DNA from: Takakia lepidozioides
Taxonomy: Eukaryota; Plantae; Bryophyta
NCBI GenBank assembly: GCA_030704615.1
Contig: CM060731.1
Span: 72,168,001-72,232,000 of the forward strand
DNA: 64,000 bases
Direction: 5' to 3'
Positions within the stretch are counted from its first letter, which is position 1. Each line of letters opens with the position of its first letter. The translations under genes and the position numbers were made by a program. Positions 1 through 58,062 of this stretch are shown one piece after another. The notes below the pieces were generated by a model. The model searched no databases and was not told the DNA's origin. It worked only from the letters and a program-made list of their open reading frames with translations.

Positions 1-815
1 GCCTCCCTCACTGCCACGGCAGTGGAGCTTAGAGAGAAGACTCCGGCTGAGGCCGGCGTAACTAAGAGCCACTTCACCTTGCGGCTACTGCCCCCTTTCG
101 AAGGTGGGCCCTATAACAAAAAAGTGTCCAGGGGGACACCAGATGACCGCTAAGACACCAGGTGACCGCTAAGAATAGAGGGGGCGAGGGTATCCCTAGG
201 TACCCAGGGGTATCCTAGGGGACCTAAGGTGCATTTGAAGTGCCGGATTCCAGTTGACGTTTGTTGGTGATAATAGCTATGAGTGAACGGAGTGCCGTAA
301 GATGGATTTCTTTGAAACATTTGTGGATGAGAAGAATGGGAATTTGGAAGTTATCGTGTGTGTCCGTGATACTGGCGTTATGAATGCCACCTCGAGTGTC
401 GGTTGTGATGACAGTTAACGGGCCGGTTTTCCAGCCACGCCTTCGGAGTGCAAGGATAAGCGAGACATATTTTTGACGTTTTTCTAAGATTGAATCGTTT
501 GGATAACGATCATGGCAAAATGTGAATTCAATGAAATGGATGGTGAGTTGTGGGGATGGTGAGGTGGGGGGTAAAGTGTTGATAGGTAGACCTTGGACGA
601 GGAGTATGTCCGGGCAAAGTCGAGCGAGGCATGAGCATGGTGATCGGGTACATATGCATGGTAGTGGCCACGGTGGTACTGTGTGGTCGGGTGGCCGTCC
701 TTGGTAGGTGCCTGCATTCATGAGCGAGAACCAACGGGTTTCAGCATGTTTTAGAAAGAGCTTGTGGAGATGCCAGACTGCCTGGTTATGACGCGTGATA
801 TGCAAGCCATTGTCA
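1..815 (-). mobile_element. 5'-truncated non-LTR retrotransposon (RLE type, Dualen/RandI-like): C-terminal endonuclease ORF remnant plus 3' UTR; runs off the left edge
   Basis: ORF 224..805 reads HITRHNQAV...RLCPDILLVQG...IHFIEFTFCHD...EKRQKY...GW. This is the RHN + PD-(D/E) + KxxKY signature of restriction-like endonuclease domains. It aligns with a second copy at 16119-16603, and the 3' UTR (about 45-115) matches 15930-16003. Confidence 0.8.
65..112 (-). ncRNA. Conserved structured RNA element in retroelement 3' UTR (copy 1)
   Basis: Sense sequence AGGGCC-CA-CCUUC-GAAA-GGGGG-C-AGUA-GCC-GCAA-GGU-GAA-G-U-GGCUCU. It forms three stems with two GNRA loops and covaries with the copy at 15953-16000. 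Confidence 0.7.
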
Positions 816-1248
816 AGTTAAATAAGCACAGTGTGAAAACAACTAGAATAAAGCTAGACAATAACGGCAATGAGGTTGCGGTTGGGGTGATGATGATGGG
901 CAGAGGGGTGGGAGATGTGCAGTGGAGCTTAAATAGTATTAGGTCGTAATCTAATCCTGGTCCCGCGTGACACTTACATATAGGCCAGCCAGATGCCCTT
1001 CCGGCATAGCCATAGAAAGAAGCCAGATCACCCAAATCTATCCTAATCTAATCCTAAACTAGATGTTAGAATAAGACAACACCTAATAAAGTCATAAGCT
1101 GTTGCCAGCTCATCCTCATGCGCAAGGTGTAAGTTCATCCAGACTTCATCCTGGTTCCGTCCATCCCTAAATCATCTCGACACATCCCTCCTCCGTTCAT
1201 CCAAGTCGAACCCAGCTCCACAGCTTCCATCCCCTTTTCCCAAAAAAT

Positions 1249-1449: not shown

Positions 1450-4400
1450 ATGAAGGTGAAGGTGATCGCTCGTTCTGACGATGACTTTACCCGAGACCGT
1501 GGTCAAGACCTCCAGGTTTGTCGGTTTCCTACTGCTGCCTTAGCTCCTGTTATTTGCCTTGTGAGGCCAGGCAATTGCTGCGTTTTTGTTTTCCAAAGCA
1601 GGCTTGGTAAATTGCAGGAAAGCTTTTGGGAATGACTGGGTTAGGTGTTATGGAAAGACTGTTATGCTACTAATCCATTCGGTTAAAAAATTTGTTTCGT
1701 AGACCTTTCTGAGGCAGGTGTTCTGGGAGATAGGATGGAATTTAAGGTTGGTTGCTATTGGGGTCGAGGGTTTTGCTATCTAGGCCACGTCTAATCGGTA
1801 CAATTGTAGACCATGTGAGCCGGGCATACCTTTGAGTGTATCGGAGTGGAACCGGATTAGGTGCAGGATGAAAACAGGCTAGTCTCCTCCATTGCCAAGT
1901 ATAAGTTGGGGTCCTTTACTGTATGGTCGGGTCTTGCTTCTCAGTCTTCTTCAGAGCTGGGGTCTTTGTTTTAAACGACAGCTGAATTGAATGCCCTATC
2001 GTTGGGTTCTCTTTTGATGTGGTGTTCCAATGTGTGCCTCAGTTTTATGGTGTGGTGTGTTCCTGTCAAGACAGAAAGTGTTTAGAAACTTGGACCCAAG
2101 TCTTCACCCACAGGAGAGGGCACATGAATATGTTCGAGCTCTCAATGCAGCCAAATTGGAAAAGGCAAGTACTATTTGCCTTGCCTCTATTGCTTTATGT
2201 GCTTGTTAGCAATTATACTGATGCAAATTGACTTCCTTGCTAGCTAGTTTTTTTTCATCTGTTAAGATCCAGCCTTCACGTTCAGTGAGTGATGTGGCTA
2301 TATGGGCATTGTATTTTGTGCAGGTGTTTGCCAAACCCTTTGTGGGAGCTATGAGTGGGCATATGGATGGTGTGTCTTGCATGGCCAAAAATCCGCACCA
2401 TCTCAATTGCCTCATATCTGCTTCCTTGGATGGAGGTATGAGTGGTGCCGATGATTTACTTGCTTTCTTGCAGCTGTGCATTATTAGTTTCCATTCTTAT
2501 GATACACAAACCCATGTCTGCGAATGTTTGTGTAGAAAAATAGATTGACTGGATTGGTTTCCGCTAACACAAATGTGACGTTAAATGTTGCAGACATTCG
2601 ACTTTGGGATATTGCCTACAGGTACTCACCTTCTTTAATTGGTATGATTTGATTGCAACCTTTAATCAATTGGTCTGCTTTCCCTTCCTCTGAGGTTGTT
2701 GATGGAGGTGAGTATGGTCTCTATGCAGGCGTACTGTGCGGCATTTTCCAGGCCACAGAGGGGCTGTACGTGGGTTGGCAGTATCCACAGATGGGAACCA
2801 CCTTGTTTCTTGTGGCGATGATTGCGTGTAAGCTTGCTTTACATGTCTTGTGTGTGGGCAAGATCATATAGCACAGAGATGTTCACAAGGTGCATGCACT
2901 CACACACACGCACTGTGTATCGTGATGGTAATGTCATCACCAGGAAAAGAAGAAACTTTTGCACCAGTAACAGAGTGAGGGTCCGTACTGAGGTGGACTA
3001 CGCTGAGAGGATTGGCTAGTCTAATATGTTCCCAATGAAATAGGAACAGCAATTGCTGTACTCTCCCACTAGAGAACAACATGGCCAGAGGCCTGACTAA
3101 GAAATACTAACTCAAGTGAAGTGTGCAACCCTAAATAATATGAAGGTCAGCAAATGATAAGCTTTACCAGCATCCAAACTGTGAAACACACTACCAAGCC
3201 CATGGGTCTGAACTGGCCAAAACTTGTCTTCAGGCAGTTTTGGAGGTCCAGAGAGAGAGAGAATGTACTTGTAAGACTTTGTTTGCTATAGTCTTGTGGC
3301 CATAGACCTATGCCCAGTATGCACAGCATAGGGAATAGACTCTACCTTTGTGAGAGGGGCTCACTCCATGGGGAGAGAGAGAGAGAGAGAGGAAAGTTTT
3401 CCGTGTGCTCAAAGTAAACTTCGATGGTGTCATGGGTACAGGGTAAGGCTTTGGGAGATTCCTTCTTCTTTTGTGGGGGAGTCTACTGGTGAACATGTGG
3501 ATGTTGTGGAGGCAAGTCCCTAAACTTCAGTCACTTGTTTGCGGGCTTGTAACGGGCACAGGATGTTCTGCATTAGTGGAGTAACCAGTTAAATGGATCA
3601 GAAAATGCATGGTATCCTCACCATCATGCCACGGATAGGACATTGGATACCAAATGCCACAGCTACCTGCTGTCCAGAGGTAGGCAGCCTTCTTTAGTTT
3701 GAACTTGCAGCCCAGTTCCCGACTTGGGGAGGCCCTATAGATTGTCCTTGATTCCCAGTTGTTCATCAGATGCTGAAAGGAAGGTCTGAATAGATTTATG
3801 TCTGGCTTTAGCTCCTTCACTTGGAGTAAGGGCTTCTGTTGATACCAGTCTAGTTCCCCTTTTCATCAAATTCGAAAAGCAGGGTTTGAGCTCTATGAAG
3901 TAATGTTCGTCGGTTCTTTTTTCCTGTATGTTGCAGCCTCTGGCAACCTATCAAGGAAAGAATGCTTACAGGTACTTCTGGTCGGTATTTCATTGATCAT
4001 GGTTTGTAATATCCTGTTCAGGGACTACAAAAGTTTTGTGGTTGTGGCACTGTCAGTAGATTTTGTTTGTGCAATGACTTCACTCTGCTTCTCTCCCTCT
4101 ATCTCTCTCCACCTCTCTGTTGCAATATCATAGTTCAGTCTGCAGCTAGTGCTGCTTTTGAAGAGGCTGGTCTTACCCAACATGCGATATTACTTCATGC
4201 ACTGTGGGGATGGAGAAAATATGGAGAATTAAGTGCTCAGAAAGGGTTAGGATTGCAAGGACTAACCTGCAAGTCTGATGCCATGTGTCTTACATGAGGT
4301 TAGGTCCATTACTCTGGGATATGGACTTGGGGACATCTACACATGGAGAGGATGCGGCCTAGAGATATTACCAACTTAGGTTGTTAAGAATTTCAATGCT

Positions 4401-6221
4401 TTCACTTTCGGGTGCCCACCCGTGCCTACGAAATCCATGGGTTTGAGATTTCAAACCGTGCTTTGGTGACTTCCTGGGGTGCAGAGCTGTGGATTACCAG
4501 TGGAATAGTCAAATATTTGCAACAGCAGGTTCGCAGGTTGATATCTGGGATCAAAACAGGTGTAACACCTGCCGCCCCCCCCCCCCCCCCCAAAACGCCC
4601 TTTCTCCAGTTTTAGCCCCTTCTTCCCTCTATAATGAGTGCATCAGTATAGATGTGATGTTGTCTTATTATGGTTGTACATGAGGACATTTCAAGATGGC
4701 CTGTTCACTATACACTCCATCAATGTAGGGCTTGGTTGTCGGGGTTGGCAGGTTTGTGGAGTTGGTACAACATTAGGGCTCATGATTAAGCATCTGGCCA
4801 AAATGTCCCCATTCCTGAGTTCGCGCATATTGTACTCACCAAATCTCTGGTTTTATCTGATAGCTAAACAGAGTTACTCCCCTTCACAGTGGAATCCTCA
4901 GTTGGTGTACCTAAGTGTTTTGGGTGCATACCACTCCAATTATGGAAGTGCCTTGTTTTCCTGTACATTTGCAAACATCAATCGGCAGACCATCTGGTAA
5001 ATGGTTTGCCAATAAGCGTGTTATTAATGTGCTGGAGGTGAGTGATGGTCACCAACTTGTTCCAATTAGCATTCTTAGATCCTACGATGCTGATGGTATT
5101 CATGAATTGCTTAGAACCTGCTGAGTTTAGCTCTTATAAGTTGCCTTGCTGGAGTTTGTAGCTCTTGTCAATTTCAGAAAGGTGTAGGTGAAAAATATGA
5201 TGGTGGAGCTATGCCATTCCCATCAGAGCATGTTTGGTGACAAGGGATGTCGGGGTGGGGTGGTCTGGGGCAAAGGTCAGAACCAGTGAACAGCTTCTCC
5301 TGGGGCGCAGACTCAGTGGTGTCGGTGCGCTTCAATCCTGCTGAACGTGATGTATTTGCCACCACTGCAAGGTGTTACTTTTTATGTTTATTTTTGCAGG
5401 CATTTCTCTCCCTGTTCAGCTCCTCTTCTCTCCCTGAACTATGGCCTTACTATTTTCTTTTGAGCTTTGTGTGTTGCTAAGGTAGGCTGTCACTAGCACT
5501 GGTTAAGTGCACGATGGTCATGAAATGTAAATCTTATTATGTTTCTTTTTGAAGGTTATTGAGATGTGGAATAGAAGTGGAGCACTGGATGAAAACTGGA
5601 ACAGGTTCGGAGTTCCCCCTGGCTAGTGAATCAGAAACATACTTGACAGTTACACATTGTATGGGTGGGCACAGTGACCGCAGCATTGCGCTATATGATC
5701 TCCGGATGGGTACTCCATTGAGAAAACTAATAATGCAGGTACTCACCTCGTATCTGCCACAACTCTTGTAGCAGGAAGGCACAAATCACGTTTGGTTTAC
5801 AACATTGATAGAATGCCAGATAGCTTAATGACGGAGAATACATAGAGCTATTGGAAACTTTGACCCCCCCCCCCCCCCCCGGTCCTCTCTCTCTCTCCCT
5901 CGTTGCCCTGCACGCAGCCCAGAGTGACGGATGGAAGCCTCCTGTGCCCATCCCCAAGCATGTCATTTCTGTTGTAAACGCAGGGCTATAAAACTAAAAT
6001 CTGCAACCAGGCTGTTGAGTTTGCATGGTGACTAGTGTCACTGTGAGTGCCTCAATGGCTGTTGTGGGAAAATAAGTATATGCCTGCAAGCTGATTTGTG
6101 GGAATAAGCTAAACCCTGGTGGGTGCAAACCCCACAAAAGGCTCTGGGGGGGTTAGTTTCCCGCAGGGTCAATGGCCGTAAGGCTATGGTAAGCCAATGT
6201 TCGCAAGGAACCGGATGGGTA

Positions 6222-6265
<44 letters not shown>

Positions 6266-9200
6266 TAACTCTCTTCAGGAACGTCAACAACATCGTCCCT
6301 GCACCTCTGTTCACGAACTTCGAAATCTTGAGGCTGAGCCGAAAGCCATGGCCCTGTTGGGGTCTAATTGCTGGGCAGAGCACTCACATCAGCTTGATGC
6401 TTGTGTGAAGGGCTTTCTAGAGGATATCTGGAAAGCCCGAACTAATTGTTTATACCAAGGTGAGTCCCAGTACTGGAGTGAGCCCCTCACAAAGGTAGTT
6501 TATGTTCCCTTTAGTTCTGCCCAAACTGGGGGTGGGGTCTATGGCCACAAGGCTACAGCAAACGGCTTATGAGTTGATTCTCTCCCTCCCGCATACGGAA
6601 AACAATGTCTTATGAGTACATTCTCTCTCTCTCCCTCTCCCTTTTGTTTTCCACTCAAACTGGGCGTGATGTCAACGGCCACAAGGCTACAACAAACGTC
6701 TTCTGAGTACATTCACTCTCTTTTGTTGCACCGAAATTGGGCATGAGGTCTATGGCCACAAGGCTAGGGCAAACAACACCTTCTGAGTACATTACTCTGT
6801 TTCTCTATTAACATCCACGACAACCACTGGTGCCAGTGTTAGATGGAAATTCTGAGTACCCACCTTGATTTCAAGCTGGGCTGAATGTAAGTTGCTGTAG
6901 TAGGGCCATGGTGGATGAATGAGACAAAGATTGTTGCTCTCACATTGAAAGGAACATTTTTGAAGTCACATGGTAAAAGCTCTGTTCAAGAGGCTGGGAA
7001 TAAGAACTGTGATCCTCCTCATGTTTGTATGTTTGGACTCTTTCTGGAGAAATCAAAATCAATTTCTAAAAGCTTACTTTCACAAGCATTCCACAATGCT
7101 TGTGGCCCCCATTTGGCTCATCTCTCAATCCAGTTCGGCCTCTCCGGCCTTTTCTGCTCTGTTCTAACCAGGCATGGAGTCTTTGGCCACTTGGCTATGG
7201 CAAAGTCTGACAAGTATGACTGTCCTTGATATGTTGCTGTTTCAACAGGGAAAAAGCTGTAGGTCTGTTGGTTGGTAAATTACACTAGTGATCACGCTGT
7301 AATTATTTTTACATTTTGTTGGTGTGTTATTTGCTGCAGACAAGGACAAATTCAGTCGCTTGGAATCCCCAAGAAGCATTCAACTTCACTGCTGTAAGCT
7401 GTTTGTTTCAGTTGGATGCCTATGCTGAATACATTGAGAGCCTTCATGTGAGTAGCTGTGTGGGATGCTGTAGTTCCTGGGGCATGATATGGTTGGCCGG
7501 ATTGGGGACCAGGCAAATGAGGATAGCAACTGCTACAGCTTCGACATGCGAAGGCTCAAGCACGCCTCCTGCATTCATAAGGACCACGTGTCAGCTGTGT
7601 GAGTTTCTGTAATTCTAGAATTTTCAACAAGGGGAGTTGGTTGTCTGTGCTATCATGACAATTTACTTGTGTTCTTCTTGGAATTGAAGCAAATATGATT
7701 TGTACATGGATGCAGGATGGATCTGGATTACTCACCAACAGGTCGAGAGTTTGTTACAGGATCATATGACAGAACAGTTCGTGAACTTAGTCACCTCTCA
7801 ATATGCTTCCTTTTGCTGCCCTTCTATTCATGTCATGGAGTAAATTGGATTTTGTCTATGTGAGCTATGATTGATCTTTCTTACATTAGGACATCACCTT
7901 TTTGGTGCATCCATTTCTGTTGGAAGTACTAAATGTCACTACTGGGCTGTGTGGCAATAACCTGAGATTGATTATCATGCAGGTCAGAATTTTCCCCTAC
8001 AATGGAGGCCATAGTAAGGAGGTGTATCATACAAAGCGCATGCAGAGGTATCTTAGAACTGCTTTCTTGAGTGTCTCACATAACTTCATTGTATGGTTGA
8101 TGCGAGAAATATACTGTGGGCTTGTGGAGTGATAATTTTCTCATAATTTGGTGCGAGAATGGATGCTGCCAAATATTGAAACCTTTGTGGAGGGCCAAGG
8201 CTGCTTCTAGTGCAGTCTATGCTGTTGCTCAGATGACTTCCCCAAGTGGCAATGTATCTTTCTATTATGGTCTCATTTGATGTCAGATATTCTCAACCAG
8301 CTCCTAAAGGCTGACTATGCTCCATAGTTGGCGAGTACCACTTTTGTTTGCTTTCATATTTATGTGTGGTAGCTTTGTGATGATGAACACCCATCATCAG
8401 CCCTTTGAAGGCAACAGCGGTGCTCCTGAGAGCTGTCAATGTTCCCTTAAGCTCTGCCTTGTCATGATAATGGGAGTGTGTGACTAATGCTCTTTGAGCA
8501 TTTGCTGGCTTTGATGTCACTTTTTTGGAACTGCAATATCTTCTTGTTCTTTGTAACGTAACTGTGAGGGTGTGATGTGTACATGGGATGGATCTAGGGT
8601 ATTCTGTGTGAGTTTCAGTAGCGATGCCGCATATGTGGTGTCAGGCAGTGATGATACAAACCTTCGTCTGTGGAAGTCAAAGGCATCGGAGCAACTTGGC
8701 GTGGTAACAACTGAATTGGCCTTCAACAATGATTTGAAACTGTGCATAAATACATTCTGTCTCCCACACAAAGGTCTTTTGCCATAAAATGTTTCCTATT
8801 GGGATGTATAGGCATGCCGAGATTGGAGTTGTCATTTTTTGGGTGGGTGTGTGGGTTTACAGCTGCTGCCAAGGGAGAAACAAAGGCATGCATATCTGAC
8901 TGCAGTGAAGGAGCGCTACAAGCATCTACCTGAAATCAGTCGAATTGATCGGTGGGTTTACATCCTTTCCGTAAATGGTCAGAGCTCTTTGATGGGTGTT
9001 CAATTTGGCCGCTCTCATTGTTTTTGTGATAGCCCAATTCGTTGGTGCCACATGCCACAGAGGTCATGTGTTTTCTCATTGGAATTTCCTGCAAACATTG
9101 CCTGTGACATACCCTTCAAGGCATCATTGTGGGGGGCTTGTGTGGCCAAAGTTGCCTAGATTAAGTTCTGATGTACTGGAAGGGGTTATCATGCAGGCAT

Positions 9201-11380: not shown

Positions 11381-11495
11381 TGGATGCGGCATTGGGAATT
11401 CCCGAGAGGTCACCAATCCCAGTACTATTGTGGCCCAAAGGCAACTTCAGAATTCTGATGGGATCTGGTGTAGTAGCCTTGGTATGACCGCACCA
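11381..11495 (-). pseudogene. 5S rRNA pseudogene
   Basis: Colinear with the 5S gene at 18361-18479, but with a 4-nt deletion in the A-box region (AGTTAAGCGC becomes AGTTGC), several substitutions and TATAA changed to CATAA upstream. It shares about 50 bp of 5' flank with that gene. Confidence 0.9.
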
Positions 11496-13544
11496 CAACA
11501 TTGACGCTCCACGCTTGCCACTTATGATGGCTCTTCTTGCACCCATCAAGTTCTCCTATGATCAATTTTGCCCACTCACATTCATACCTGTTGCTACTTT
11601 ATTCAAGGTCTACGCCATGCCGGCCTTCAATCCTTTGCTTTGTTGTTCCACAACGAGGCCCTAAAATCAAAAGGGGTTTGTGTTGGGGGCTAATACATAA
11701 AAAACAAGTAGCCTCTATACCTGATGAACATGTTACCCTATAGGCGTGGCTTTTTCTCACGTTATGCTCACACGATACCAGCCCCTTTACGTAAGAGGCG
11801 CGAGACTAGGCGGTGAGGCTTCACCTCAAATTTAAGGTCCTCGCCCATGGGTTATTTCGCACGGGGGAACTCCATGCCAACCAGCCTGAGAATAAATCAC
11901 ACTATACTTGAAAAGATGAATAGGTCACTTTTAAAGTCCCCACCCATATTGTATATTTTGGCAAAGCAAAACTTTGTCCCCTAACAACTACAATTATATA
12001 TTGAGAGATACATTTCAGTGCGAAACTTGGTTGGATAGTGTGCAGTTAGGATGCTCACAACATGAAATCATATGTATTTTTGAGATGCCCAGAGAAAATC
12101 ATAGAGCTAAGGAGATTGTACTCACACGACAAAAATAAGAAGACGAATATCAAATTGTATAAAAATGTGCTCACATGAGCACAATCACAGCAGATAAGGC
12201 TGCGAAGCCTTAGCACATGTAACACGAAAGTTGATAGTTCAAATTGTGTTTGTGTAAATATTGTCTACAACATTTTTCTATGTGAGGTCTTCTATATCTT
12301 TTGTATAATACACATTTGTTGCCTCACACTAATCAATTAAAAAATGCAATACACATATTTTGACTTCACCTAATTCCAATAAAAAATGTAATTGTACATT
12401 GATTATGAACTAAGTTCACTTATCTACTTGATGAGATTGGTTGCAAATAACTGAACTTACAATTAGTTGTCTGCATTTCATAAGACCAGTAAAATACTGC
12501 AACTCTGTATGACTACATTAAAGATAACCTATTATGTCTGAGAATAATGGATACTGAAAGTTTTTTTGGGAGGGTTTATCGCAAAGAGGCCATCACTCCC
12601 ACTGTCACTCTCACCATAGCTGTTTATTATGGACATGAGTTCGGATAGCCTCTAAAAATGACAATTGAGGCATGACATGGTAACTCCGTACAAATCTAGC
12701 AGATTCCAACCACAAAACGTCAAGGCTAAGCGCTCCGGAAAGCGGTCCCATCCTGCAAACAAAACTCACTTAGCATGAATCTCTCTCCAAATCCATAATC
12801 AAACGAATAGACCATCCTCAACAACGAATAAACTCATTTGATTGCCAAAACTTACTCACTCTCGTATGCCAATGAGCATTCATATTAGTTCATATCCCTT
12901 AACATTCCAACATATCCAACCAGGTATTTGAAAACAAATAAAAATTGACAAGTTAGCATGGAGAAACTCATTTGTGACCTAGGAGCAAGTTTACTGGATT
13001 TTTTTTCTAGAATAATCGTTATAGGCCATCCTTGACGAGTACACGACTATTGGGTGGGTAGAATATGGGATGATGGGGCACATGTGATGATGGTCCCGAT
13101 ACCTTAGCATTACGAAATATACAATGATTCACTAAAATTCAATAGTTTTATACATTTTTGATCTGATAATATATCCTCAACCAAAGTATAGTCTAAAGAA
13201 AGCGTTAACGCACTTATGTATCGGGCTTGAATCAAAAAAATTCGAATAATTGAAAATCGAGAATTGGATATAGTGTTGGAATAACATACAAATTGGATAT
13301 ACCAAACCGTTTCGCCTTACAAAAATCATCTCTTAAATAGAGTAATGTTGCAATAATAGATGGACATTGGATATCTCAAACCCTTTCGCAACACGAAAGT
13401 GATCTGTTCAACGAGACATATTGACAACTAGTTTTACTCGAATTATAATTAAGGTGGTATAGTGGAAGGGTTACCGAGGAAAAGTACGGTAGCACTTGAT
13501 TTGATATCCCAACAGCGACAAATAATAATTTGACATCCATGAGA

Positions 13545-13775
13545 AGTAGTTCAAATCCTTCAGTTTATATCCCTCCATATCGGTTAAAAAACATGCAGGT
13601 TTTTTAACACAAACACTGTCAGACAAAAGTTTCATGTTGAAGAACTTTTTTGTTACGGCGAAGCAGTTCAAATCTCTCAGTTCATATCCCTTCAAAAGCA
13701 TGCAGGTTTTCGAGCACAAACACTGTCAGACAAGAGTTTCGTGTTGAGATTTCAACTCTTTTGCTTCGGCGAATA
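13545..13775. repeat. Imperfect tandem duplication (unit about 110-120 bp) in an AT-rich block
   Basis: AGTTCAAATC..CAGTT.ATATCCC..CATGCAGGTTTT..CACAAACACTGTCAGACAA.AGTTTC.TGTTGA occurs twice. Confidence 0.8.
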
Positions 13776-15896
13776 TTTTCCACATTCTGTATCTAGATTA
13801 TTCGTTATAAGCAATTGTGCACCACTATGGCACTATGAAACTTGTGCATGTGATGATCTCGGACTGATTTTCATATGTGGTAGTAATAATTAGGATACTT
13901 TCGTTTCGCGAGAATTGATGTCATATGGGTGGCGGAACCTGCGGGACAGCTCTCCGGATGTCTCAACATGTGTCAATATGATGCACTTATATTATCATTT
14001 ACGTAATTGTATTTTTTCTCTCTGTTAATCCACATAGCATTCCCCCTCTATTTTGTATCCTATATTGTAGCCAAATATTATCTGGAATTACCCGTGGATA
14101 TATGCTAAGATGCATTATAAAGTATGATATCAGATAGATATATGTAGATTGGTATTGATAAGCGGTTTGGTTACTATACTTGCATGATAATTTGCTAGTA
14201 CATGGATGTAGCGTTATTGGTTTGGAATAAATATCCTCATGAAAGTACCGTACGAGGGACATTGCGACATTTGATATGTATTTATATATGAGACGGATGG
14301 ATTTATTGATGGATATAGATGCATAATGTACATTGATACATTGCATATTTACCACTCAGGAGGATGCCAGCCTTACTGAAATTCATGAAGATTCAAGCGA
14401 AACTATACCATGGCAGATCACAATCGGTGTAGAAATGACTTTCTCTATTGAATTATGTATGTTCTTCCTCTTTCAGAAACCTCATTCACTGCTGTGACTT
14501 TCAGCGTAGTGAGAATAGATGCCAATAAATTTACTTCACATAGGAAGTCGAAACATAACTAGATGTAGACAGCACCCGTAAAGTGCAGTTGTTTTGCTCA
14601 CACATACTACACATATTCAAAACACATATTAGTTTTGTAGTGAGAAACTAAATGTAGTATGTAGTTTGTAATTTATTATATTATTTCCACAATTTTCTAT
14701 AGGGGTATGTAAAAGAAATTCCCAAATTCTAGGAACTTCATTGAGAAACCTAAACCAAATGATATAATACAAATACCATTCAGGTTACTAGAATTAATTG
14801 TCGACAATGATGTTTTCAAAGCGAAACAATCTTAGACCTTCTTAGACTCTATGCTAAAATTCATTGATGATCTCTCTCTTTGATGATCTAAATGACATAT
14901 ATGTACATGTTAATTCCGTTCCTATAGGAAATTTCACTAGGTGAAAGTATCCTCATTTGTTATTCTTTCTATATTGTCCTTATCGGTGAGTCGTTTTGTT
15001 ATCATGTATCGAAAACTGTTGCATTTGTCTTGGTACAGTATATTTACAATGTGTAGATTTTGATCAATCAAGGTACAGAATGTAGGCGAGTGATATCGAT
15101 TTAAACTTAGTTATACCTTAAAATCATTTCCAATCAATATCGCTATATTTTCTGTTTGGTGTTATTTTCAGAGGACGGAACAAATGCATTTTTGAGGTTA
15201 TATTTAGCATCATATTTCAATAGCATTAGAACTGTATTGTGTATCAGCTGCAACTATTTTGTTTTCATTGCACGAAATTGTTGTGATATATTTTCTGTTA
15301 AGGATCTCTACTTCTTAACTGAATCTAGGCTTCCTCGGAGGTTGACTTTTTTTGTTTAGTGTGTGGATGTAAAGCTCAAAATGTACCCTTCTTCTTCGTC
15401 ATCAATGCCAACGTACATTCACAAAAACTTGCCAGTTTACATTATTTATCGCAGGTTTTATGAGGTTTTAGAGGGTGGGTTGGAGAATGCGAAAGCCTTA
15501 TGTGATCTCACTTCTCATCACTGTACTACTTTATTGACATAATGTTTTGCGATATCCTCTTTACAAAGCATGAGAAAGTCTTGACAACGCCAGTACACGA
15601 AAATGAGATGACTTTTACCGGAGCTTGTGGACTGGGTTGCTACCTTTGACCTTTTGCCATCTCATTTATGTTTGAGCCCAATGGCATATTTGTTTGTTAT
15701 TCTTTAAAAACATTCTTCCGAGCATTATTAGAACAATCAAGGATATACCAATAAGGGTTTCTCAATGCGAAACCCGCCGCCGCAGCTATAGATTTAGGGT
15801 TTCTGACTACACTACTGAAGGTTTTGCCTCATTGAATTGGCACAGATCTACCGTATAAATGCACCAGTCCTCTATACCCGCTTATGGTTTGATTCC

Positions 15897-15899
<3 letters not shown>

Positions 15900-15926
<27 letters not shown>
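15900..15926. repeat. (TA)n microsatellite abutting the 3' end of the retroelement copy
   Basis: Read directly from the sequence. Confidence 0.95.
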
Positions 15927-15927
<1 letters not shown>

Positions 15928-18070
15928 ACGCCAACTAAAGCTAGCGTAAATAAGAGCCTCTTCCCCTTGCGGGTACTGCCCCCTTCCAGGGGTGGGCTCT
16001 ATTGGACCGTAACCTGTCACACAGTGGCTAGCTGGCCACTTTCAAGCTTACATTTATTGAGGATTAGGGATGTGAGTGATGTAATAGCCGTAAAATGCAA
16101 GGCTCGTAGTAGATGTCCCTAATACCCTTGATACCTGCAGTGATGATGGTTAGAGGTGCCGTGTTCTCGCTGACATAAGGTATGTATGATTGGGTTATAT
16201 TGGTACATAATTGATTGATCTGGATTTCGATCATGGCAAAAGGCGAATTCCAAAAAATTTATTTTGAGATATGGAAGTGGTTTTGTCGGCGACATTGCTA
16301 GTACATGAAGTCCCTGGACTAGCAAAATATCTGGGCATAGCCTTCCGATGGCAAAGGCATGGGTGCCCTTGGGAGCATACACACGGTAGCAGCCATGGGT
16401 ATAGTGTGGTCCGGTGGGCGACCTTGGAACGTGTCTGCATTGATGAGGTTAAACCATCTGGATATCGGATGTGAAGTGAGAATTTTGTGGAATTGTCTAA
16501 CCCCTTGGTTATGTCTAGTTACACGCAACCCATGAATTATGGGGTGGTTGCAGTGGAGAAGTGAGTGTGGCCATGTATCTATTTGGGATTTTGGGATGAA
16601 CATAACATGCAGAGTTTATTAGGATATATAATGGCCAGAACAAGTTTCGTCGTTGATTGCCCATGTATTGACCATACCGAAATTCCAAAGTTTGTTTGAT
16701 TTGTGCATCAGTAACCTTGGGGGGTGTCGGCCAAAAATGATTGGACATACTATGTAGTAGGTGCGGGGACGAGACCCACTTAGATATGTAGGAATTTTTG
16801 TAGGTGCGGGATTCTTGTATGAGTAGTTTGGTTTCGCATGGGATGTGTGTGTGCAGATTCCGTGTAGGTGCTATGGTCGGGAATCTAGCCCTTGTTGATA
16901 TGAGCCAAAACGGGTATGTATGCGACTGGTGGATAGGGCTGGTCGAGGGGTTGGTGATTGGCTGAATGACACCAAGTTGAGCAAGATGGTCTACTATGTC
17001 ATTACCTATTATGTCTGTGTGAGATCGAACTTTATGCAGCGGTAAAGAGGATACAACATCCACGATTCCTTTTATATGTGTAATATCAGGATGATGGATC
17101 TATGATGAAGGCATGCAAATTGGTTGGCGAGAAGGTATAGGGAGACCCAACTGTCTGTAAATAAGTAGTATGTTCAGTAGGTTGGTAGGGGAGAGACTTG
17201 AGAGCATCATGTATGGCCATAAGCTTCGCTCGCAAGATATTCTGGCGACCAGGGAGACGACTATATGTTTTGGTGTTGGTGCCAACCAAATATATACCAT
17301 AACCCGCGTGGGCATCTTTTAAGGAGCCATTTGTATATATGCATTTTTTTGGTGGGAATTTCAAGGTTGTGGGTTTCATGAAATTTGGGAGTAGTATAAC
17401 AAAGGTTTTTTTGTCTCGCTGTCCTTGGAGTATTCACGTTATCTACATTTGCACCTCGCTCAATCATTTATCAACCCCCACCGCCGTGGCGCAATTACAT
17501 GAAATATCCAGAACCGTTACTAACTAAACTGGTATGTGTACACCACCACTCACAAAACCCGCAAATACCTACCAATTTCTACCATCAACTGGACCGGATT
17601 CTAAAACATTTATTTGGTCACATAGCCACAGTCCACCCGCCTACCCAAACACCCACACAAATACCCCCCAATCAATCCGGACAAACCCATGGAGACATGT
17701 GAGGTGGAGTGGGACGTTGGAATGGAATCTTTCCCATAATCACTCCAATCTTTGGAGTGTTATGTTACCAATGTAGTACCTTAGTGGTCCATATATGTGT
17801 GCCAAATTATTGTGAGTGTGAATGTGGGACTAAGACTTCATGATGTCTTTATCTAGGTTACATTCAGCTATAGAGGTGTGTAGATTTGGGATACTTCTTG
17901 GTGGGTTGATGAAGCGTCTATCGCTGGCTTGTGGTTCATCCACATGTTGGGTATGAATATGCGACAAGTAGTGGGTGTTGGTTTGTTGGTGGTGTTCGGT
18001 AACCATTTGAATATTATGGCGTAGATTGGGGTTTCCGTGGGTATTAAAAAGGTGGTCGTTGGTGAAAACA
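15928..18070 (-). mobile_element. Decayed Dualen/RandI-like non-LTR retrotransposon: pre-RNase H region, RNase H, CCHC-like knuckle, RLE and 3' UTR
   Basis: RNase H remnants are IYTNGS(=YTDGS)...AGYGIY...QNILRAKLMAI and KVRSHTDIIGNDIVDHLA. These are followed by FRYGQYMGNQR, DTWPHSLLHC..RHNQ and RLCPDILLVQG..FLEFAFCHD, with many frameshifts. No RT or APE domain is visible and the 5' boundary is approximate. Confidence 0.8.
15953..16000 (-). ncRNA. Conserved structured RNA element in retroelement 3' UTR (copy 2)
   Basis: Sense sequence AGAGCC-CA-CCCCU-GGAA-GGGGG-C-AGUA-CCC-GCAA-GGG-GAA-G-A-GGCUCU. It has the same fold as 65-112. Confidence 0.7.
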
Positions 18071-18360: not shown

Positions 18361-18479
18361 TGGGTGCAGCACCGGGACTTCCCGGGAGGTCACCCATCCC
18401 AGTACTATTCCGGCCCAAAGGCGCTTAACTTCAGAGTTCTGATGGGATCTGGTGTAGTAGCCTTGGTATGACCGCACCA
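18361..18479 (-). rRNA. 5S ribosomal RNA gene (119 nt, bryophyte-type)
   Basis: The minus strand reads TGGTGCGGTCATACCAAGGCTACTACACCAGATCCCATCAGAACTCTGAAGTTAAGCGCCTTTGGGCCGGAATAGTACTGGGATGGGTGACCTCCCGGGAAGTCCCGGTGCTGCACCCA. The A/IE/C boxes are intact and the terminal helix I pairs. Confidence 0.96.
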
Positions 18480-18510: not shown

Positions 18511-19857
18511 ATGGCTCTTCCTGCCCTCATCGCCCTCGTCAGGTTAAGTCATCACCTCTAAAGCAGCGTACACACTACACACGCTCAGTACGCTGACCTG
18601 AAGGATCACATGCGATCTGCAGTTGAGTCGTCGTCGTCGTCAGTGTTGGTGTAATTAGAAGCTGGCTCTTCCACAAAATGTGCACGCACGAGCAGGACGT
18701 GCAGCGGCTGAACCGGCAACGTTAGGCTTCTGTAGGTGTTTCTTCTATTTCAATACCCAATCCATGGGGCAGCTCTTTCAAACTTTGGGACTGTTGATCT
18801 TCATATTCCCAATTCCAAGTGTTTTGAAATAAATCGGACAGATGAGAGCTCCATAGCAAAGCTTCACTACAAATGCCACTCACTATCCCCCTAATGTCTT
18901 GGTGGGTATTGCCTACTGTTTGATGAAATGAGAAGCCCATGAAGCCCAGGAGAGCTGGCCACCTACTTCAAGAATCAGAACACACCTAACCCCGGCATCA
19001 AATGAATCTTTTAATGGCTGATAGTTGCTAAAACCTCTTTGCATTTCTGTATGTACTAAGAAGTAGCAAAGTTGGAGCAGTGTCAAGAGACAATCACCTG
19101 GAAAGACTGTTGGTGCGAAGGTGTGTATTGAGTTGATGTCAGGAGTCCCAAATATCTCGCAGCCAAATGTGCAAGAGTTCAACAGAAAGCAAGCCGAACA
19201 AACCTCCTTGGAAAAATCTTTCCTTTTCTTGTTGGCTTGTTTCAGAGGGGAAGCTAAGAATATACTGCGCCACCTTCGTCCGTTTCTCTAAATATCGACC
19301 TGCCGTTGACAGTGGGATGCCAATTCTGGAATTGGAAATGGTGGAGGCTGCGATGGTGGGCCCCTCGGAAGTGAATGCATCCACCTGTGGGGCCTGCTTA
19401 GTGTCCACGTAAGTAAATGCGATGCTCGGGGTTTATGCAGTGAGGGAAGTACTGGCTTCGGGTCCTTTGCTGTGGACAGGTTTCCTCGAAGTTACTGTAC
19501 TTGAGGGAGCCGGCAATTCAACGATAGCAAAGGCTGATCACGCGCAATGGCGTTCGAGCTGGTCTGTGGTAGCAGAGAGCGAACTGGGTTTTTGCGACTC
19601 GGATGAAGGATCGGCACCCCACAGCTGTGTAGAAGCTGTTGCACTCTAGTGCAATGTAGACGGGCGTGGGTGAGCGCGAGTCTGGCTTCGGTGGCTGGCC
19701 TCCTCCATCCGCATCAGGTGAATGTCTCTTCCAATGTTTGTGGTTATGGAAAAGTCGACTTCGTTAATGCAAATGGAAAATACTGAATTCTACCTGCTGT
19801 CTTGTTTGTGTTTGAACAGTCTGTTTGTGGGAAAAGTGCATTGAAGCTGAAGTGAAC

Positions 19858-21511
19858 ATGGATTTCAGCCTTGAGGAAACAGAAGTAGAAGTGAATGGGG
19901 TTTCGGGAGCAGCATATATGAGGGATGAACAGCCACAGCGTATGTTCCAATATCCGGGAGCCGTAAAGAAGACGGCATACAATTTTGATGGGCGAGGAAA
20001 ATTTAGCAGCAAAGAATGGGATCTGAGGCAGTGGAATGGGGAGGGATTCCGCTGGTATCACGTGGAGTTGCCCCGATCCAATCAGAGGTTGACGACTTTT
20101 GCCCAGTATCTGATAGACGTTCTATGCCCACCCTTGAAGCTGCAGGAGATTCTGTCGCTTGTGAGCAATGGTCCCTTTTGTGGCTCGATTGATGGGGCTC
20201 TTGTATTTAGAGTCAATTCTGCAGGCCCCACTAGCAGCAAGTTTACACAGAGAATTGCTGCGCTGGTGACGGACAACACAGTTATAAGCGTCTCTCTAGG
20301 TGAGGTGCGGAGATTGGATTTTTCCAGGAATGTAGCTGAGTCGTTACTGTCAGAGGTTCCCAGCATTGAGCCCACCTTTTCATCAGGCTCAAACTCACCA
20401 TATCAAGGCGGGAAAGCGACCGGGATTGTGATCCAAGAGCATGTGCTGGAGTCTCTGTTGACGATGAATCACCCGGAGCATGCGGACCATGCAGTGCCAC
20501 GCGGGGTGGGCAACCTCCTGGTGCACATCATTGACACCCATGTTGATCAGCTTCATGATGTCGTGCTCCATCTGGAAACACGACTTGATGAGGTTGAACG
20601 CGAGTTGGATACAGGTATGTCTTCTCGGACTCTTAGCCGATAGATAACATCAATGCACTTCTGTGGCTTCTAGCAGAACCGATAGGTGATGTGAAGTAGC
20701 TGAGTTGTGAAATAGGCCAGTGGTGGTGGGGTCAAAGCACTGAGAGCAGCTTCTGGACTGTAGGGGTTGGTGCAACAAAAAAACAGATGTTGGATGAACG
20801 ACGCTTTCCAAAGATGCATTTGGACCTGCAAAGGCTGTTGCAGGTCATAGCCCATGGTGACCAAGTCTTCCCCAGAGTCAAGGACAAGTGTGCGGGTAAA
20901 CACTGGTGTACTACTGAGGATCTGGTGACACTGGATGTGTTGGTGACCCGCCTTAGGAAGCTCAAAGAGAATGTCGGTTTCATAGCCAACCGCATCACGG
21001 CTATTCAAGCTGGATTGGATAGTTGGCAGGCTGAACAGATCAATCGCAAGCTCTACTACTTATCATTTCTCTCTATGATTTTCCTTCCACTGTCTATTGT
21101 GACTGGAGGTGGGTTGCTTTCTATGTCATTCTCCTCATAAGATTGACTTGGTTCTTTGGACTACTTGATCTCATATTTGGTGCAGTTGCTGTGAATTTCT
21201 GGAAGTCTAGGGATCCGTGAGTTTGTTGTATAAGTGGGTTTCATGGATGTGGTGCAGCCTTTGGAATGAATGTTGGTGGAGTGCCATGGACGACACAAAC
21301 AGATCCCACACTCGCAGAGGGTTTTCGGAATGTGATGCTCATCTGTGCAGTGCTTGTCATACTGCTGCTGGCTTGCTTTGGGGCTGTCCCTTTATATTCA
21401 TACTTCACCACAAGGCACAAGCACCAGGCTGCCAAGAAGAGATGGCTGGGCTCCAAAAAATCTATATGCTTCCGAGGTGGTCAGCAGCATAGTGCCTATA
21501 TTCCTCTTTGA
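19858..21511 (+). CDS. CorA/ZntB-like divalent cation (Mg/Zn) transporter, 3 coding exons
   Basis: Exons: 19858-20614, 20764-21108, 21258-21511. Motifs include WYHVELP, LCPPLKLQEIL and SMIFLPLSIVTGAFGMNVGGVPW (GMN motif), followed by a second TM helix. Confidence 0.93.
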
Positions 21512-23460: not shown

Positions 23461-28977
<5,517 letters not shown>

Positions 28978-43361: not shown

Positions 43362-43871
43362 TAGATGAAGGGAGGGCTGAGGGCCCCATGATTTATTTCC
43401 ATGGCCCCACAACGCAGTCTTGGCATCCAACATCACAAAAGTGAGTAGGAGCTCAAGTTGATGCCGTGTGGGGACACTATCAAGTGCAATGGTGAGCCAT
43501 AAGTTAGATATGAAAGCAGTTACAACAGCTCAGGATCTTGTGAGCAATCAGCCCACATCAAGACCATCAAATCCCTCTGAAGCTTTATTGCATAACAACA
43601 AAAAGAGATGATCTCCCAGGCTCCTGGCCAGGCAAGTTTTTTTTTTTTTTTTTGTGTGTGTTTTTTTTTAAGGGCAACACCTGGGAGCGACAGCTCACAA
43701 CTTATCAGGCCCATTTTCTTGTTTCCCCGTAGAAAAACATTTGTAAGGATAAAATAAAAAATGGATACATATTTTTTTCTCCTCTTTCTATAGAATGGAA
43801 CATTTCTTGAATTTCTTTTTTGGAAAAGTGACAAAGGCCATGAACGATAGACTCTTGATAAGCAAGGAATA

Positions 43872-44140
43872 AGCTAAGTCCAAGTGTAATGTCCATCAAC
43901 TAAGTCCAAGTGCAATCCCCCACGTCTCGTATGTTGAGGCCCAAGTGCTACCTCTAGGGTAGCGTGTGAAATCTAAGACCAAGTGCAATTTCATATATAT
44001 CCAAGTGCATCTCCCATATCAAGGCCCTAATGTCCACTGTCATCTAAGCCCAAGTGCAATCTCCAATGTATCGAAGTGCGTCTCTTATACATGTAGAGGC
44101 CCAAGTGCGAGTCTAATGTCATTAAAGTCCAAGTGCAATC
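43872..44140 (+). repeat. Array of about 9 CCAAGTG(C) motifs separated by variable spacers
   Basis: Cores lie near 43880, 43906, 43941, 43979, 44001, 44050, 44073 (variant), 44101 and 44129. Confidence 0.85.
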
Positions 44141-44149
44141 CCCTATGCT

Positions 44150-44550
44150 CCAAAGACCCTACAATTTGGGAGATGTCCGCGTCATTGTTCCACCAAAGCC
44201 CACTTTGCTATTTTTGCAATCTCCCCTCTGGAGGCTTCATATATTGATATATCCACTTTGCTATTTTTTCTGAATTTCCAGCCACCAAAAGTACTTGAAA
44301 TTCCAAATCTGACATGTGAAGGGCCAATCCCTGCTCCAAAAAAGCTCACTTTGCTATTTTTCCCGAATTTCCAACAACCCAAAGCACTTGAAATTCCACA
44401 TCTTCCGCAGGTCCAAAAATCATGAGACCAAGCCGGTGCACCCTCCTTATCGAGGGCTTTCCAACGGCACCGAACACCCAGCCTCGCGGTTTGGGAGATC
44501 TCAACGACGCTACAAACAAAACAAAACAAACGGCTCGATTCATATATTGA
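44150..44550 (-). mobile_element. Putative non-autonomous Helitron-like 5' end(s)
   Basis: A|TCAATATATGAA occurs twice on the minus strand (ends at 44550 and 44247). CACTTTGCTATTTTT is present three times, with a (CAAAA)n tract. No 3' hairpin or CTAG was identified. Confidence 0.35.
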
Positions 44551-53943: not shown

Positions 53944-53985
53944 TTAGAGAGAAGACTCCGGCCAAATCCAGTGTAACTTAGAGCC
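53944..53985 (-). mobile_element. Isolated 3' UTR fragment of the Dualen-like family
   Basis: TTAGAGAGAAGACTCCGGC...GTAACT.AGAGCC matches positions 29-70. Confidence 0.7.
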
Positions 53986-55204: not shown

Positions 55205-55770
55205 TCGTATCTTTCAGGCAAGTGTGTATCCGATTGGGAAGACTATTGTGCAAGTTATGTCGTGCGAGAGGAGAGACTTTTGTTTGGTTGTCAGGTCTAC
55301 GTCTGTTGGAAGACTCTTGTGCGAGTCGTTTGCGTGATTTCGGAGATGCTTGTGTAGGTTGTCCGTTACGGGTCCGTTTGTCGTTGCTGTACCCTGCTCT
55401 TCAGGCGAGGTTTGTATGTCCTGATTCTCAAGTCTCTTGATAAGTTATGTGCGTGATCTCGGAAAGGCTTGCGTAGGTTGACCGGTGCGGTGTGTTTGTC
55501 CCCGCTGCCGGAAGAGGTTTGTATGTATGTTGACTGTTTCTCTTAGAGACGTGAGAAGTCTGTCTGGTACACTATCCGCTCTCCGGGCAAGGGTTGTACG
55601 CGTGATTCTGAAGACTCGCTAGTTATGTGCACGATCTCTTCGAGACTTGTGTAGGTTGTCTGGATCTGTGTTTGTCATCGTTGCTACAGCCCCGCCTTCG
55701 AGGCAAGGTTTGTATACCCGGATCCGAACTTGTGTGTGTTAGATGTCGGAGAGACTTGTGTTGGTTGTGT
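55205..55770 (+). repeat. Degenerate tandem repeat (unit about 120 bp, 3-4 copies) upstream of the homeobox ATG
   Basis: AGTTATGTGC.GATCTC..CTTGTGTAGGTTG..GTTTGTC..GGCAAGGTTTGTAT..TGATTCT.AAG.CTC recurs. Confidence 0.7.
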
Positions 55771-56320
55771 GATACTCAGCGTGTTTGTCACCTTACACAC
55801 ACGACAGGAAAGCATGGGCTTTTGAGGTTCTTGTTTAGAAGGCTATACAGGGAGAAGGATCGGGGAGGATTCTGCTATAGAGCCATCGCGGTCCTCTAGG
55901 ATCGCCATGTTTTAATGTGCCTTGGTGGCTCGACAATCCTTATCTGTTGAAAATCTCCTAGATGCGTGATCTTGTTCCAGGAAGTCGTTGTTAGATCCTT
56001 TTGTGGACTATATCAGATCACTTGCCCTTCTGCAGAATGACCTTCTACAGACAGCACCTATCTCGTCATGGTGATAATGGGAAGATTCGAATGTTAATAC
56101 ACCTGCAATTGCGAAGGAGTGTTTCACATGCTGGCTTACTCAAATTGTTCTTTGGTATTGGACATCTCATCCCAAACTCATCTTAGGCCCTGCTTTTCTG
56201 TCTAGTGTTGTATGTAGAAGAATGGCATACATACCAGTGCTGAGCTTTGAGTTTAATGTTGCTGGACTCGCAGGTACAGATTCGCATAGAGTTCTCCTTA
56301 ACCTGGTACAAACTCTAGCA

Positions 56321-58062
56321 ATGGGATCTGATGGCTCGATGGAACTGGTTCCACAAGAAAGGCAGAAAGCAGCCTCTAGGAGGAAGAAAAGCGCCACACA
56401 AGTTGAAGTTTTGGAGAGGCTCTATGCTGGTAATTCCTCTGCAGTGCCTTTTTTTGGGGTGGGGGAGGGGGTGTCTGTGGTGTGGATGGTTGTGGTATCC
56501 CTCCAATTCCTTGATCCTGGACAGCCAACATGAATCATTTATGTTTGCCTACACCAGAAATGATTCAATGTCCACATTTTTCCAGTTCACAGCAAAGGGA
56601 AATTTGTTGTATGAACGTTTAGTGTGTTGCTATACCTTACAATTATTTGCTGTAACACCTTCCAAATGTTAAGTGGTTCTCGAACTGTATGGTCCACAGA
56701 GGCGAGGTATCCTCCAGAGGAAGCACGAATAGCAATAAGCCAGGCACTTGGATTGTCAGAGAAGCAGCTTCAAGTTTGGTTCACACACAGACGGTACAAG
56801 GACAGGCGCGATGGTATAGAGGATGTGCAACTGACAACGCATCAGAATCGTGACAAAGTTGACGTGCTAAGTGATGAACCCCAGGGTGGCAAGAAAGGGG
56901 CAATTGATTTGAACAGCACAGATGATGTGTCCGAAGATGGGTATCCTGCTACAGTTGTTACTGAGGAGCGCAATGATAAGGCCCTGCTGGAGAACAAAAA
57001 TGGCATGAAAGTTAATAATTGTCGGTCTGAAGAAAAGGAGAATGCAAAGAAGGCTGCCAAGAGAAAAGCTCTTGCAAACTCAAAGGAATCAAAGAAGGCA
57101 CAGCAAAAACCAGCAGTTTCTAAGCCAAAAGTGCCCTCCAGGGCAGAGATTGAGATGGCTGCGATTATTGCTGTCGAGGCCCAGTTATGTGGACCATTGC
57201 GAGAAGATGGCCCTCCTCTTGGTCTCGAGTTTGATGTGTTACCCCCTGATGCCTTCCAACATTTAGATATCACAGAAGGTGAACCAAAATTTCATTCTCC
57301 CTTATTTTGAGTGGACCTTTTGCATCTTCTTCCAGACAATTGTCTCACAGCTTTCGAGCAGAGATATGCTGCTGTTTGGCATCTGAAGGCTGTCAATACA
57401 ACCACTGAGGGTCATCTACAGAGTCTCGGGCTGGATACGCATAGCTGATAGTAGTTATCTGGAGAGGACCTGAGCATGGTAGCATTAACAAGTACCTACT
57501 TATGTGTTAGATTGAAAATGATGTATAGATTGCTCAGTATTCATGAACTTTTTGTTTGAGCATTTGAATGACACTTTTTCCAGGGAAAGCGGGTCTTTTG
57601 GTGGCTTCCTTATATCTGTATAGCTTTTAATGGCAGCTCTTGGAAACATGCAACTTCCAGGATTAATTTGTGAGAGGTTTCGTTGTATCATCAAGTTTGC
57701 TAACAATTTCCTGTGCCCTCCACAAGTGTGTTTGTGTTCGCCTATGACAGTTGTAAGTTGTGAATTGGCAGGTTTTGGCAATGAAGGTGGAATGATAAAT
57801 TTTGTTGAGAAAACTGAACCCAAGGGCAAGTGGGGAAAGGACCTGCCAGAGAAGAAGAAAAGAAAGGTAGCTGGCTACCATATCATCTATTGTTTTGTTG
57901 GAGAGAAAGTTTGTCTCTTGAGATGGTTCTTGTTTTGAATATGGGTTTTGAATCGCAATATTTATGGTTAACTTTGCCAAACCTTTGAGGTAACTCATAT
58001 TTTGCTTGTCCTGGCTGCAGGGTGGAACACTCAAATCGACCAAGGGAGAAGATGGGTGCTAA
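56321..58062 (+). CDS. Short homeodomain protein related to the N-terminus of RINGLET/homeobox-DDT proteins, 4 exons, 274 aa
   Basis: Exons 56321-56429, 56700-57278, 57772-57866 and 58021-58062 total 825 nt in frame. Motifs are QVEVLERLYAEARYP..LGLSEKQLQVWFTHRRYKDR and VEAQL.GPLREDGPPLGLEFDVLPPDAF. The last two exons are less certain. Confidence 0.82.

What the first reader, a model, noticed from the sequence alone, without database searches (positions are those of the whole stretch)
65..112. Covarying three-way-junction RNA (two GNRA tetraloops plus a loop E motif) in the 3' UTR of an RLE retrotransposon
Seen: two diverged copies (65-112 and 15953-16000, both minus strand) are exactly 48 nt and differ at 8 positions, and every change keeps the fold. 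In P1, AGGGCC becomes AGAGCC against GGCUCU (G.U to A-U). In P2, CCUUC becomes CCCCU against GGGGG, and the loop GAAA becomes GGAA (still GNRA). In P3, GCC/GGU becomes CCC/GGG (a double change) around a GCAA loop. The last change is an unpaired U to A. P3 sits on a C-AGUA/GAA-G internal loop, the sarcin-ricin/loop E bulged-G motif. The sequence between this element and the stop codon is not visibly conserved between copies. Established: R2-type RLE elements recognise a structured 3' UTR for target-primed reverse transcription. Inference: this is the template-recognition module (or another functional RNA) of this family, and I know of no description of it.
Basis: partly seen in the sequence, partly recalled or inferred. 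Interest (0 to 1): 0.85.

Follow-up and report, generated by a model that had tools for sequence, protein, structure and literature searches.

The report
Folded RNA tail of moss retrotransposon
A short, well conserved stretch at the very tail of a common jumping gene in a moss-like plant is predicted to fold into a three-way junction plus a hairpin, and likely serves as the handle by which the element's own enzyme picks out its RNA for copying.

Summary
The two 48-nt copies are real, differ at 8 positions, and all 15 proposed pairs form in both. The element is not R2-type: RNase H, CCHC knuckle and RLE, plus a relative with APE and RT, point to Dualen/RandI, in a moss-like host. The motif is better conserved between the two families (40/48) than any of 648 coding windows, while the spacer from the stop codon is 111 versus 16 nt. 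Public contigs show it as a high-copy shared tail. 'Covarying' is overstated: only one pair in the 48-mer changes on both sides; four of the eight differences are minority letters, mostly C-to-T decay that makes G-U pairs; neither copy alone folds this way by energy models; 14% of one subfamily breaks the second GNRA loop. No Rfam match and no paper found. Best reading: the template-recognition signal for target-primed reverse transcription (inferred, 0.6). A new variant of a known kind.

The parts
65..112 (-). Copy A: predicted three-way junction (P1, P2 with GAAA loop, loop E-type internal loop, P3 with GCAA loop)
73..89 (-). Loop E / S-turn consensus (AGUA at 89-86, GAA at 75-73) enclosing P3 in copy A
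   Evidence: sequence; motif consensus recalled
40..59 (-). Copy A: hairpin P4 (8 pairs, one G-A mismatch, 4-nt loop)
32..39 (-). CT-rich 3' tail; 3' end of the element
   Evidence: 241 contigs of run X1 leave the stretch at 31
19..31 (-). Target-site duplication, 3' copy (13 of 13 identical to 919-931)
919..931 (-). Target-site duplication, 5' copy; copy A is 5'-truncated at about 918
113..223 (-). Variable 3' UTR spacer of copy A (111 nt), not shared with B
224..883 (-). Broken ORF end of copy A: CCHC knuckle remnant and restriction-like endonuclease; stop at 226-224
15953..16000 (-). Copy B: predicted three-way junction, 16 nt behind the stop codon
15928..15947 (-). Copy B: hairpin P4 (8 of 8 pairs; z -3.5)
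15896..15927 (-). Copy B: (AT)n tail or target microsatellite
16017..17412 (-). Broken ORF of copy B: RNase H, CCHC knuckle, RLE; stop at 16019-16017
17439..17684 (+). Inverted piece of the same ORF (region upstream of RNase H) beside copy B
   Evidence: profile E 3.2e-6 in a six-frame local search
53948..53985 (-). Copy C: only the last 37-38 nt (3' strand of P1, decayed P4, CT tail), between 12-bp flanks identical at 10 of 12

Best explanation
The motif is the core of a conserved 3'-terminal module of a Dualen/RandI-like retrotransposon, and it likely folds in the transcript into a three-way junction plus hairpin that the element's own protein binds to pick its template. Steps: (1) shown: the module is the last 85 nt of the element, ahead of a CT-rich tail and a target-site duplication; (2) shown: diverged families keep it while the spacer and coding DNA drift; (3) inferred: P2 and P3 stack (no linker between them) and the loop E and junction present a protein surface; (4) inferred from R2 structures: the ORF protein binds it and feeds the tail to the nicked target DNA; (5) shown as footprints: reverse transcription starts at the tail and often stops early, leaving 3'-only copies.
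For: 3' end fixed by a 13/13 duplication and by contigs leaving the stretch at 31 in 3 of 4 runs. 40/48 identity against a maximum of 39 and median of 25 in 648 ORF windows, with proteins 36-53% identical. In copy B the module is nearly the whole 3' UTR (16-nt spacer). Summed contig depth at the motif is about 416 times the spacer minimum and 13 times the ORF peak in X1, 390 and 14 times in X6 (not a copy number). 13 of 14 listed joints link the motif to the ORF end across other sequence. The junction keeps 15 of 15 pairs in both copies, whereas each copy's own lowest-energy fold loses 3 of 15 and 4 of 16 pairs in the other. In A-type contigs the P3 loop varies at the N and R places of GNRA (18% U, 9% G), above the CpG decay beside it (3.3% and 4.5%); at the CpG next to loop E the G-U-making change is 30% and the loop-E-breaking one 5.7%. 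Precedent: 43-nt R2 tag (PMC10499050, passages), 68-98-nt avian R2 3' motif (PMC12180492, passages), Chlamydomonas SINEs that share RandI tails (PMC3747384, passages).
Against: Only one two-sided change in the 48-mer and one in P4; shuffle control not passed (106 of 500). Energy models give P2 and P3 probabilities of 0.01 or less in each copy. In B-type contigs the last A of the P3 loop changes in 14% of depth, which breaks GNRA, and G-to-A changes in the P2 3' strand (4% and 8.5%) are as common as C-to-T in the 5' strand (3.6-7%). Variant tables give single-place shares, not whole copies; one search's table hid 37 rows and one search shows no rows for 15937-15966. No binding, probing or transposition data. 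No second lineage with the motif was found.
Confidence: 0.6

Rival explanations
1. The fold is real but serves a host-facing job: it stabilises or ends the transcript, or binds a host loop E reader such as TFIIIA or ribosomal protein L5, while the element's protein reads only P4 and the tail.
For: The host's own 5S gene in this window carries the same AGUA/GAA loop; copy B lies behind a 5S gene; P4 is a separate stable hairpin next to the tail.
Against: No 5S or other Rfam match; only one pair lies between junction and loop E, where 5S rRNA has a full helix V (recalled); copies A and C are 11 kb or more from either 5S copy.
Confidence: 0.15
2. Only P1 and P4 are right; the middle folds otherwise or switches between folds.
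For: P1 has pair probabilities near 1.0 in B but P2/P3 do not in either copy; 14% GNRA breakage in B-type contigs.
Against: The rival folds are copy-specific; the one two-sided change sits in P3; nearest-neighbour models give no credit for loop E (established knowledge).
Confidence: 0.12
3. The shared tail reflects a recent 3'-end swap or conversion between families plus 5' truncation, with little selection on RNA shape; C-to-T decay makes harmless-looking G-U pairs.
For: Three of A's differences are C-to-T minority letters and one of B's is a minority letter; 23-26 of 48 single transitions are tolerated by the model; symmetric CpG decay of 17-18% in B-type contigs.
Against: GNRA-shaped loop variation and asymmetric CpG change in A-type contigs; G-C to C-G swap between families; many unlike upstream sequences end at the same boundary, 114-116.
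Confidence: 0.08
4. It is a new small self-cleaving ribozyme that cuts read-through transcripts near the 3' end.
For: Compact, conserved junction and loop E; ribozymes occur in other retroelements (recalled).
Against: No known ribozyme family matches; the inserted copies run 33 nt past P1 to the tail, so a cut inside the motif would remove the priming end.
Confidence: 0.05

Closest known systems
Dualen/RandI LINEs of green algae and cryptophytes
   Same: RNase H, CCHC knuckle and RLE at the C-terminus (PMC5029228, passage); microsatellite tails (PMC3472496, passage); 3' ends shared with SINEX elements (PMC3747384). Relative P0188 holds APE, RT, RNase H and the matching RLE region.
   Different: Host here is moss-like; no 3' RNA structure of Dualen turned up in nine searches; APE and RT are missing from these truncated copies.
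R2 3' UTR recognition motifs (Bombyx R2 tag; avian pseudoknot-hinge-stem)
   Same: Small structured core near the 3' end of an RLE element, with the rest of the UTR diverged; RLE fold closest to R2 (Z 11.2, rmsd 2.8-3.0, 147-153 aligned).
   Different: Other topology (three-way junction with loop E and a further hairpin, no pseudoknot proposed); no rDNA target; element has RNase H.
Stringent-type LINE/SINE 3' stem-loops (UnaL2, SART1, monocot L1)
   Same: Conserved terminal structure thought to give template specificity (PMC3747384, PMC3472496, passages).
   Different: Those are described as single hairpins; this module has four helices.
Sarcin-ricin loop and eukaryotic 5S rRNA loop E
   Same: AGUA/GAA internal loop consensus (recalled; also seen in the window's 5S gene).
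   Different: Three pairs between motif and GNRA loop; set directly on a junction; no Rfam match to rRNA.

Membership tests
Dualen/RandI clade | C-terminal restriction-like endonuclease | tested here: met
   Model pLDDT 85; best structural matches R2 RLE, Z 11.2; Foldseek top six all R2, E 1e-3 to 5e-3
Dualen/RandI clade | RNase H then CCHC knuckle ahead of the RLE | tested here: met
   Copy B matches P0001 across its RNase H; knuckle seen
Dualen/RandI clade | APE and RT in the same ORF (dual endonuclease) | tested here: inconclusive
   Window copies are 5'-truncated; only the distant relative P0188 (25% identical to P0155 over 717 columns, E 7e-31) shows APE 418-672 and RT 1078-1349
Dualen/RandI clade | RT phylogeny within the clade | not tested
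   No RT in the window copies
Dualen/RandI clade | Microsatellite-like 3' tail | tested here: met
   CT-rich tail in A and C, (AT)n in B; loose ends
R2 clade | Site-specific insertion in 28S rDNA | tested here: not met
   Three unrelated flanks; Rfam finds only 5S in the window
Stringent LINE 3'-end recognition signal | Conserved structured segment at the element's 3' end | tested here: met
Stringent LINE 3'-end recognition signal | Significant compensatory variation | tested here: inconclusive
   2 of 23 pairs two-sided in 2 sequences; 106 of 500 shuffles as high
Stringent LINE 3'-end recognition signal | Needed for protein binding or retrotransposition | not testable with these tools
   Needs a bench assay
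Stringent LINE 3'-end recognition signal | Shared with a partner SINE | tested here: inconclusive
   Many unlike upstream sequences at 114-116 (agreement 0.37-0.39) fit truncation, other families or SINEs
Loop E / bulged-G motif | AGUA opposite GAA between two helices | tested here: met
   Both copies; in B-type contigs the AGUA strand shows only one change of 1.5%; consensus recalled
Loop E / bulged-G motif | S-turn geometry in 3D | not testable with these tools
   Needs probing or structure
Known Rfam families incl. ribozymes and 5S rRNA | Score near the family's gathering threshold | tested here: not met
   Best hits over the motif 14 bits or less, E 0.6-10, all far below threshold

The most novel reading that the evidence does not exclude
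Mosses harbour an abundant, undescribed land-plant branch of Dualen elements whose families all end in one portable 85-nt tertiary RNA tag (loop E junction plus hairpin). The tag alone would make any RNA a template for the dual-endonuclease protein, and would be the first defined RNA signal for the clade that bridges RLE and APE retrotransposons.
Probability: 0.35. Interest if true: 0.7.

Novelty: new variant of a known kind. Interest (0 to 1): 0.5.

Why it matters
How non-LTR retrotransposons choose their own RNA is known in atomic detail only for R2. Dualen sits between RLE and APE elements, and I found no RNA signal described for it. A short, bounded module gives a direct test (bind, prime, swap) and a possible tag for RNA-templated gene insertion in plants. 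It also offers an 85-nt probe for finding and naming these elements in bryophyte genomes.

Tried and rejected
No whole genome is held, so no genome-wide alignment. Pattern scan of metagenome contigs gave 2 matches, both chance hits in bacterial coding DNA without P2/P3 pairing or RLE. Tighter patterns found 0 in viral and genome contigs. Protein-based locus searches confirmed 0 of 125 and 0 of 83 candidates. First long-protein search found none of 302. The protein atlas gave no result. A model from two copies found A, B, C (E 0.026) and 10 weaker hits; 4362-4450 (E 0.14) lacks the AGUA strand and has no RLE match upstream, so rejected. A 13-nt duplication candidate for copy B at 17076 lies inside RNase H, rejected. 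No RNA holder listed; guessed-RNA runs X9 and X10 hold the motif inside longer contigs, which says nothing on the element's expression. Kojima and Fujiwara 2005 and Cognat 2008 were not held and Repbase could not be searched; either may describe the tail or moss elements. No supplements were read. My notebook's remark that the GAA strand is invariant is withdrawn: that table has no rows there. The majority-letter form of the motif was not folded, so whether it is the lowest-energy fold is open.

Full report
Observation. Both 48-mers are at the stated places on the minus strand and differ at 8 positions. All 15 pairs of the proposed P1, P2, closing C-G and P3 are canonical in both. The match is not chance (E 4.8e-11). 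Eight random substitutions keep pairs, both GNRA loops and the AGUA/GAA loop in 5 to 858 of 200,000 trials, depending on transition bias; this control is partly circular. Neither copy alone folds this way in ViennaRNA: the junction lies 8.0 (A) and 5.0 (B) kcal/mol above the minimum, and P2/P3 probabilities are 0.01 or less; the joint fold of both copies gives the junction. Each copy's own best fold loses 3 of 15 or 4 of 16 pairs in the other copy.

The unit is larger. Five bases behind P1 lies a fourth hairpin (A 40-59, B 15928-15947; z -2.1 and -3.5), then a CT-rich tail in A and (AT)n in B. A 13-bp exact duplication at 919-931 and 19-31 bounds copy A. A third copy at 53948-53985 holds only the last 37-38 nt between flanks identical at 10 of 12. 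The stops align; the spacer to the motif is 111 nt in A and 16 nt in B. Single-contig loose ends show further P4 variants, two in run X10 with a UUCG loop (read by eye).

The element. The ORF end of A has 515 relatives at E 0.001 or better, the best 49% identical. Its model matches the R2 RLE domain best. The two best relatives carry a PCIF1-like region and RNase H ahead of the knuckle and RLE, and copy B matches across the RNase H. One long relative, P0188, has APE, RT, PCIF1-like, RNase H and the matching C-terminus. That order is the Dualen/RandI plan (PMC5029228 and PMC4640811, passages). Membership is likely but not shown, as the copies lack APE and RT. A host gene in the window has its best named matches in mosses (53-55% Sphagnum, 44-48% Physcomitrium, 37-38% liverworts).

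Population evidence. Contigs of public runs laid at 80% likeness pile up on 31-116: summed depth peaks about 416-fold over the spacer minimum and 13-fold over the ORF peak in X1, 390- and 14-fold in X6 (summed depth is no copy number; X5 gave one contig). Contigs leave the stretch at 31 (241 in X1, 20 in X6, 19 in X9) and at 114-116 with unlike sequence (91 in X1). Of 14 listed joints, 13 link the motif to the ORF end across other sequence; these are single contigs at low stringency. Between A and B the motif is 40/48 identical; no ORF window of 648 reaches 40 (maximum 39, median 25) and spacer windows reach 24.

What the variants say. In B-type contigs CpG decay is symmetric (16.6% and 18.2%), G-to-A hits the P2 3' strand (4.2%, 8.5%), and the last A of the P3 loop changes in 14%. 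Limits: single-place shares only; 37 rows hidden; no rows for 15937-15966. Formal covariation on two sequences is not significant (2 of 23 pairs; 106 of 500 shuffles).

Mechanism. Shown: terminal position, conservation across diverged families, duplication-bounded 3'-only copies. Inferred: the fold, protein binding, and a role in priming. The inference rests on R2, where a 43-nt tag or a 68-98-nt 3' motif suffices (PMC10499050, PMC12180492, passages), and on Chlamydomonas SINEs with RandI tails (PMC3747384, passages). I put this at 0.6; host-facing role 0.15, other fold 0.12, tail swap without selection 0.08, ribozyme 0.05.

Novelty. Rfam gives nothing near threshold. Nine paper searches (listings only, plus passages of PMC3747384, PMC5348765, PMC9977147, PMC5029228, PMC4640811, PMC8226300, PMC3472496, PMC10499050, PMC12180492) showed no Dualen 3' structure, no loop E in a LINE tail and no moss Dualen. 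No second lineage with the motif was found. Structured 3' signals are a known kind; this fold and host look new. Two earlier scan notes on other genomes describe folded RLE tails of other clades; not checked and not counted as support. Verdict: real feature, new variant of a known kind, interest 0.5.

Noticed in passing
window 18361-18479 (-) and 11381-11495 (-): An intact-looking 5S rRNA gene and a decayed one with shared upstream flank; weak Dualen-like coding matches start right behind the first (18252-18020).
   Followed up: partly
window 17439-17684 (+): Inverted ORF piece next to copy B, as a twin-priming 5' inversion would leave; no target duplication found for B.
   Followed up: partly
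proteins P0001, P0002, P0155, P0188: A PCIF1-like (PF12237; PCIF1 is an adenine methyltransferase, recalled) region sits between RT and RNase H in these Dualen-like proteins.
   Followed up: no
window 53948-53985 (-): The shortest copy stops at the 3' strand of P1, as if reverse transcription stalled at the junction; one case only.
   Followed up: no
window 6506-6806 and 3250-3368: Tandem 75-80-nt repeats with an inverted copy 3.3 kb away; possibly ends of a DNA transposon.
   Followed up: no
window 43870-44410, 55321-55769, 13543-13773: Three further arrays of diverged short tandem repeats.
   Followed up: no
window 56078-57310 (+), 27141-27629 (-), 19816-20643 (+): Host gene pieces: homeobox-DDT (RLT1-like), uridine kinase/PRK family, CorA-like.
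   Followed up: partly
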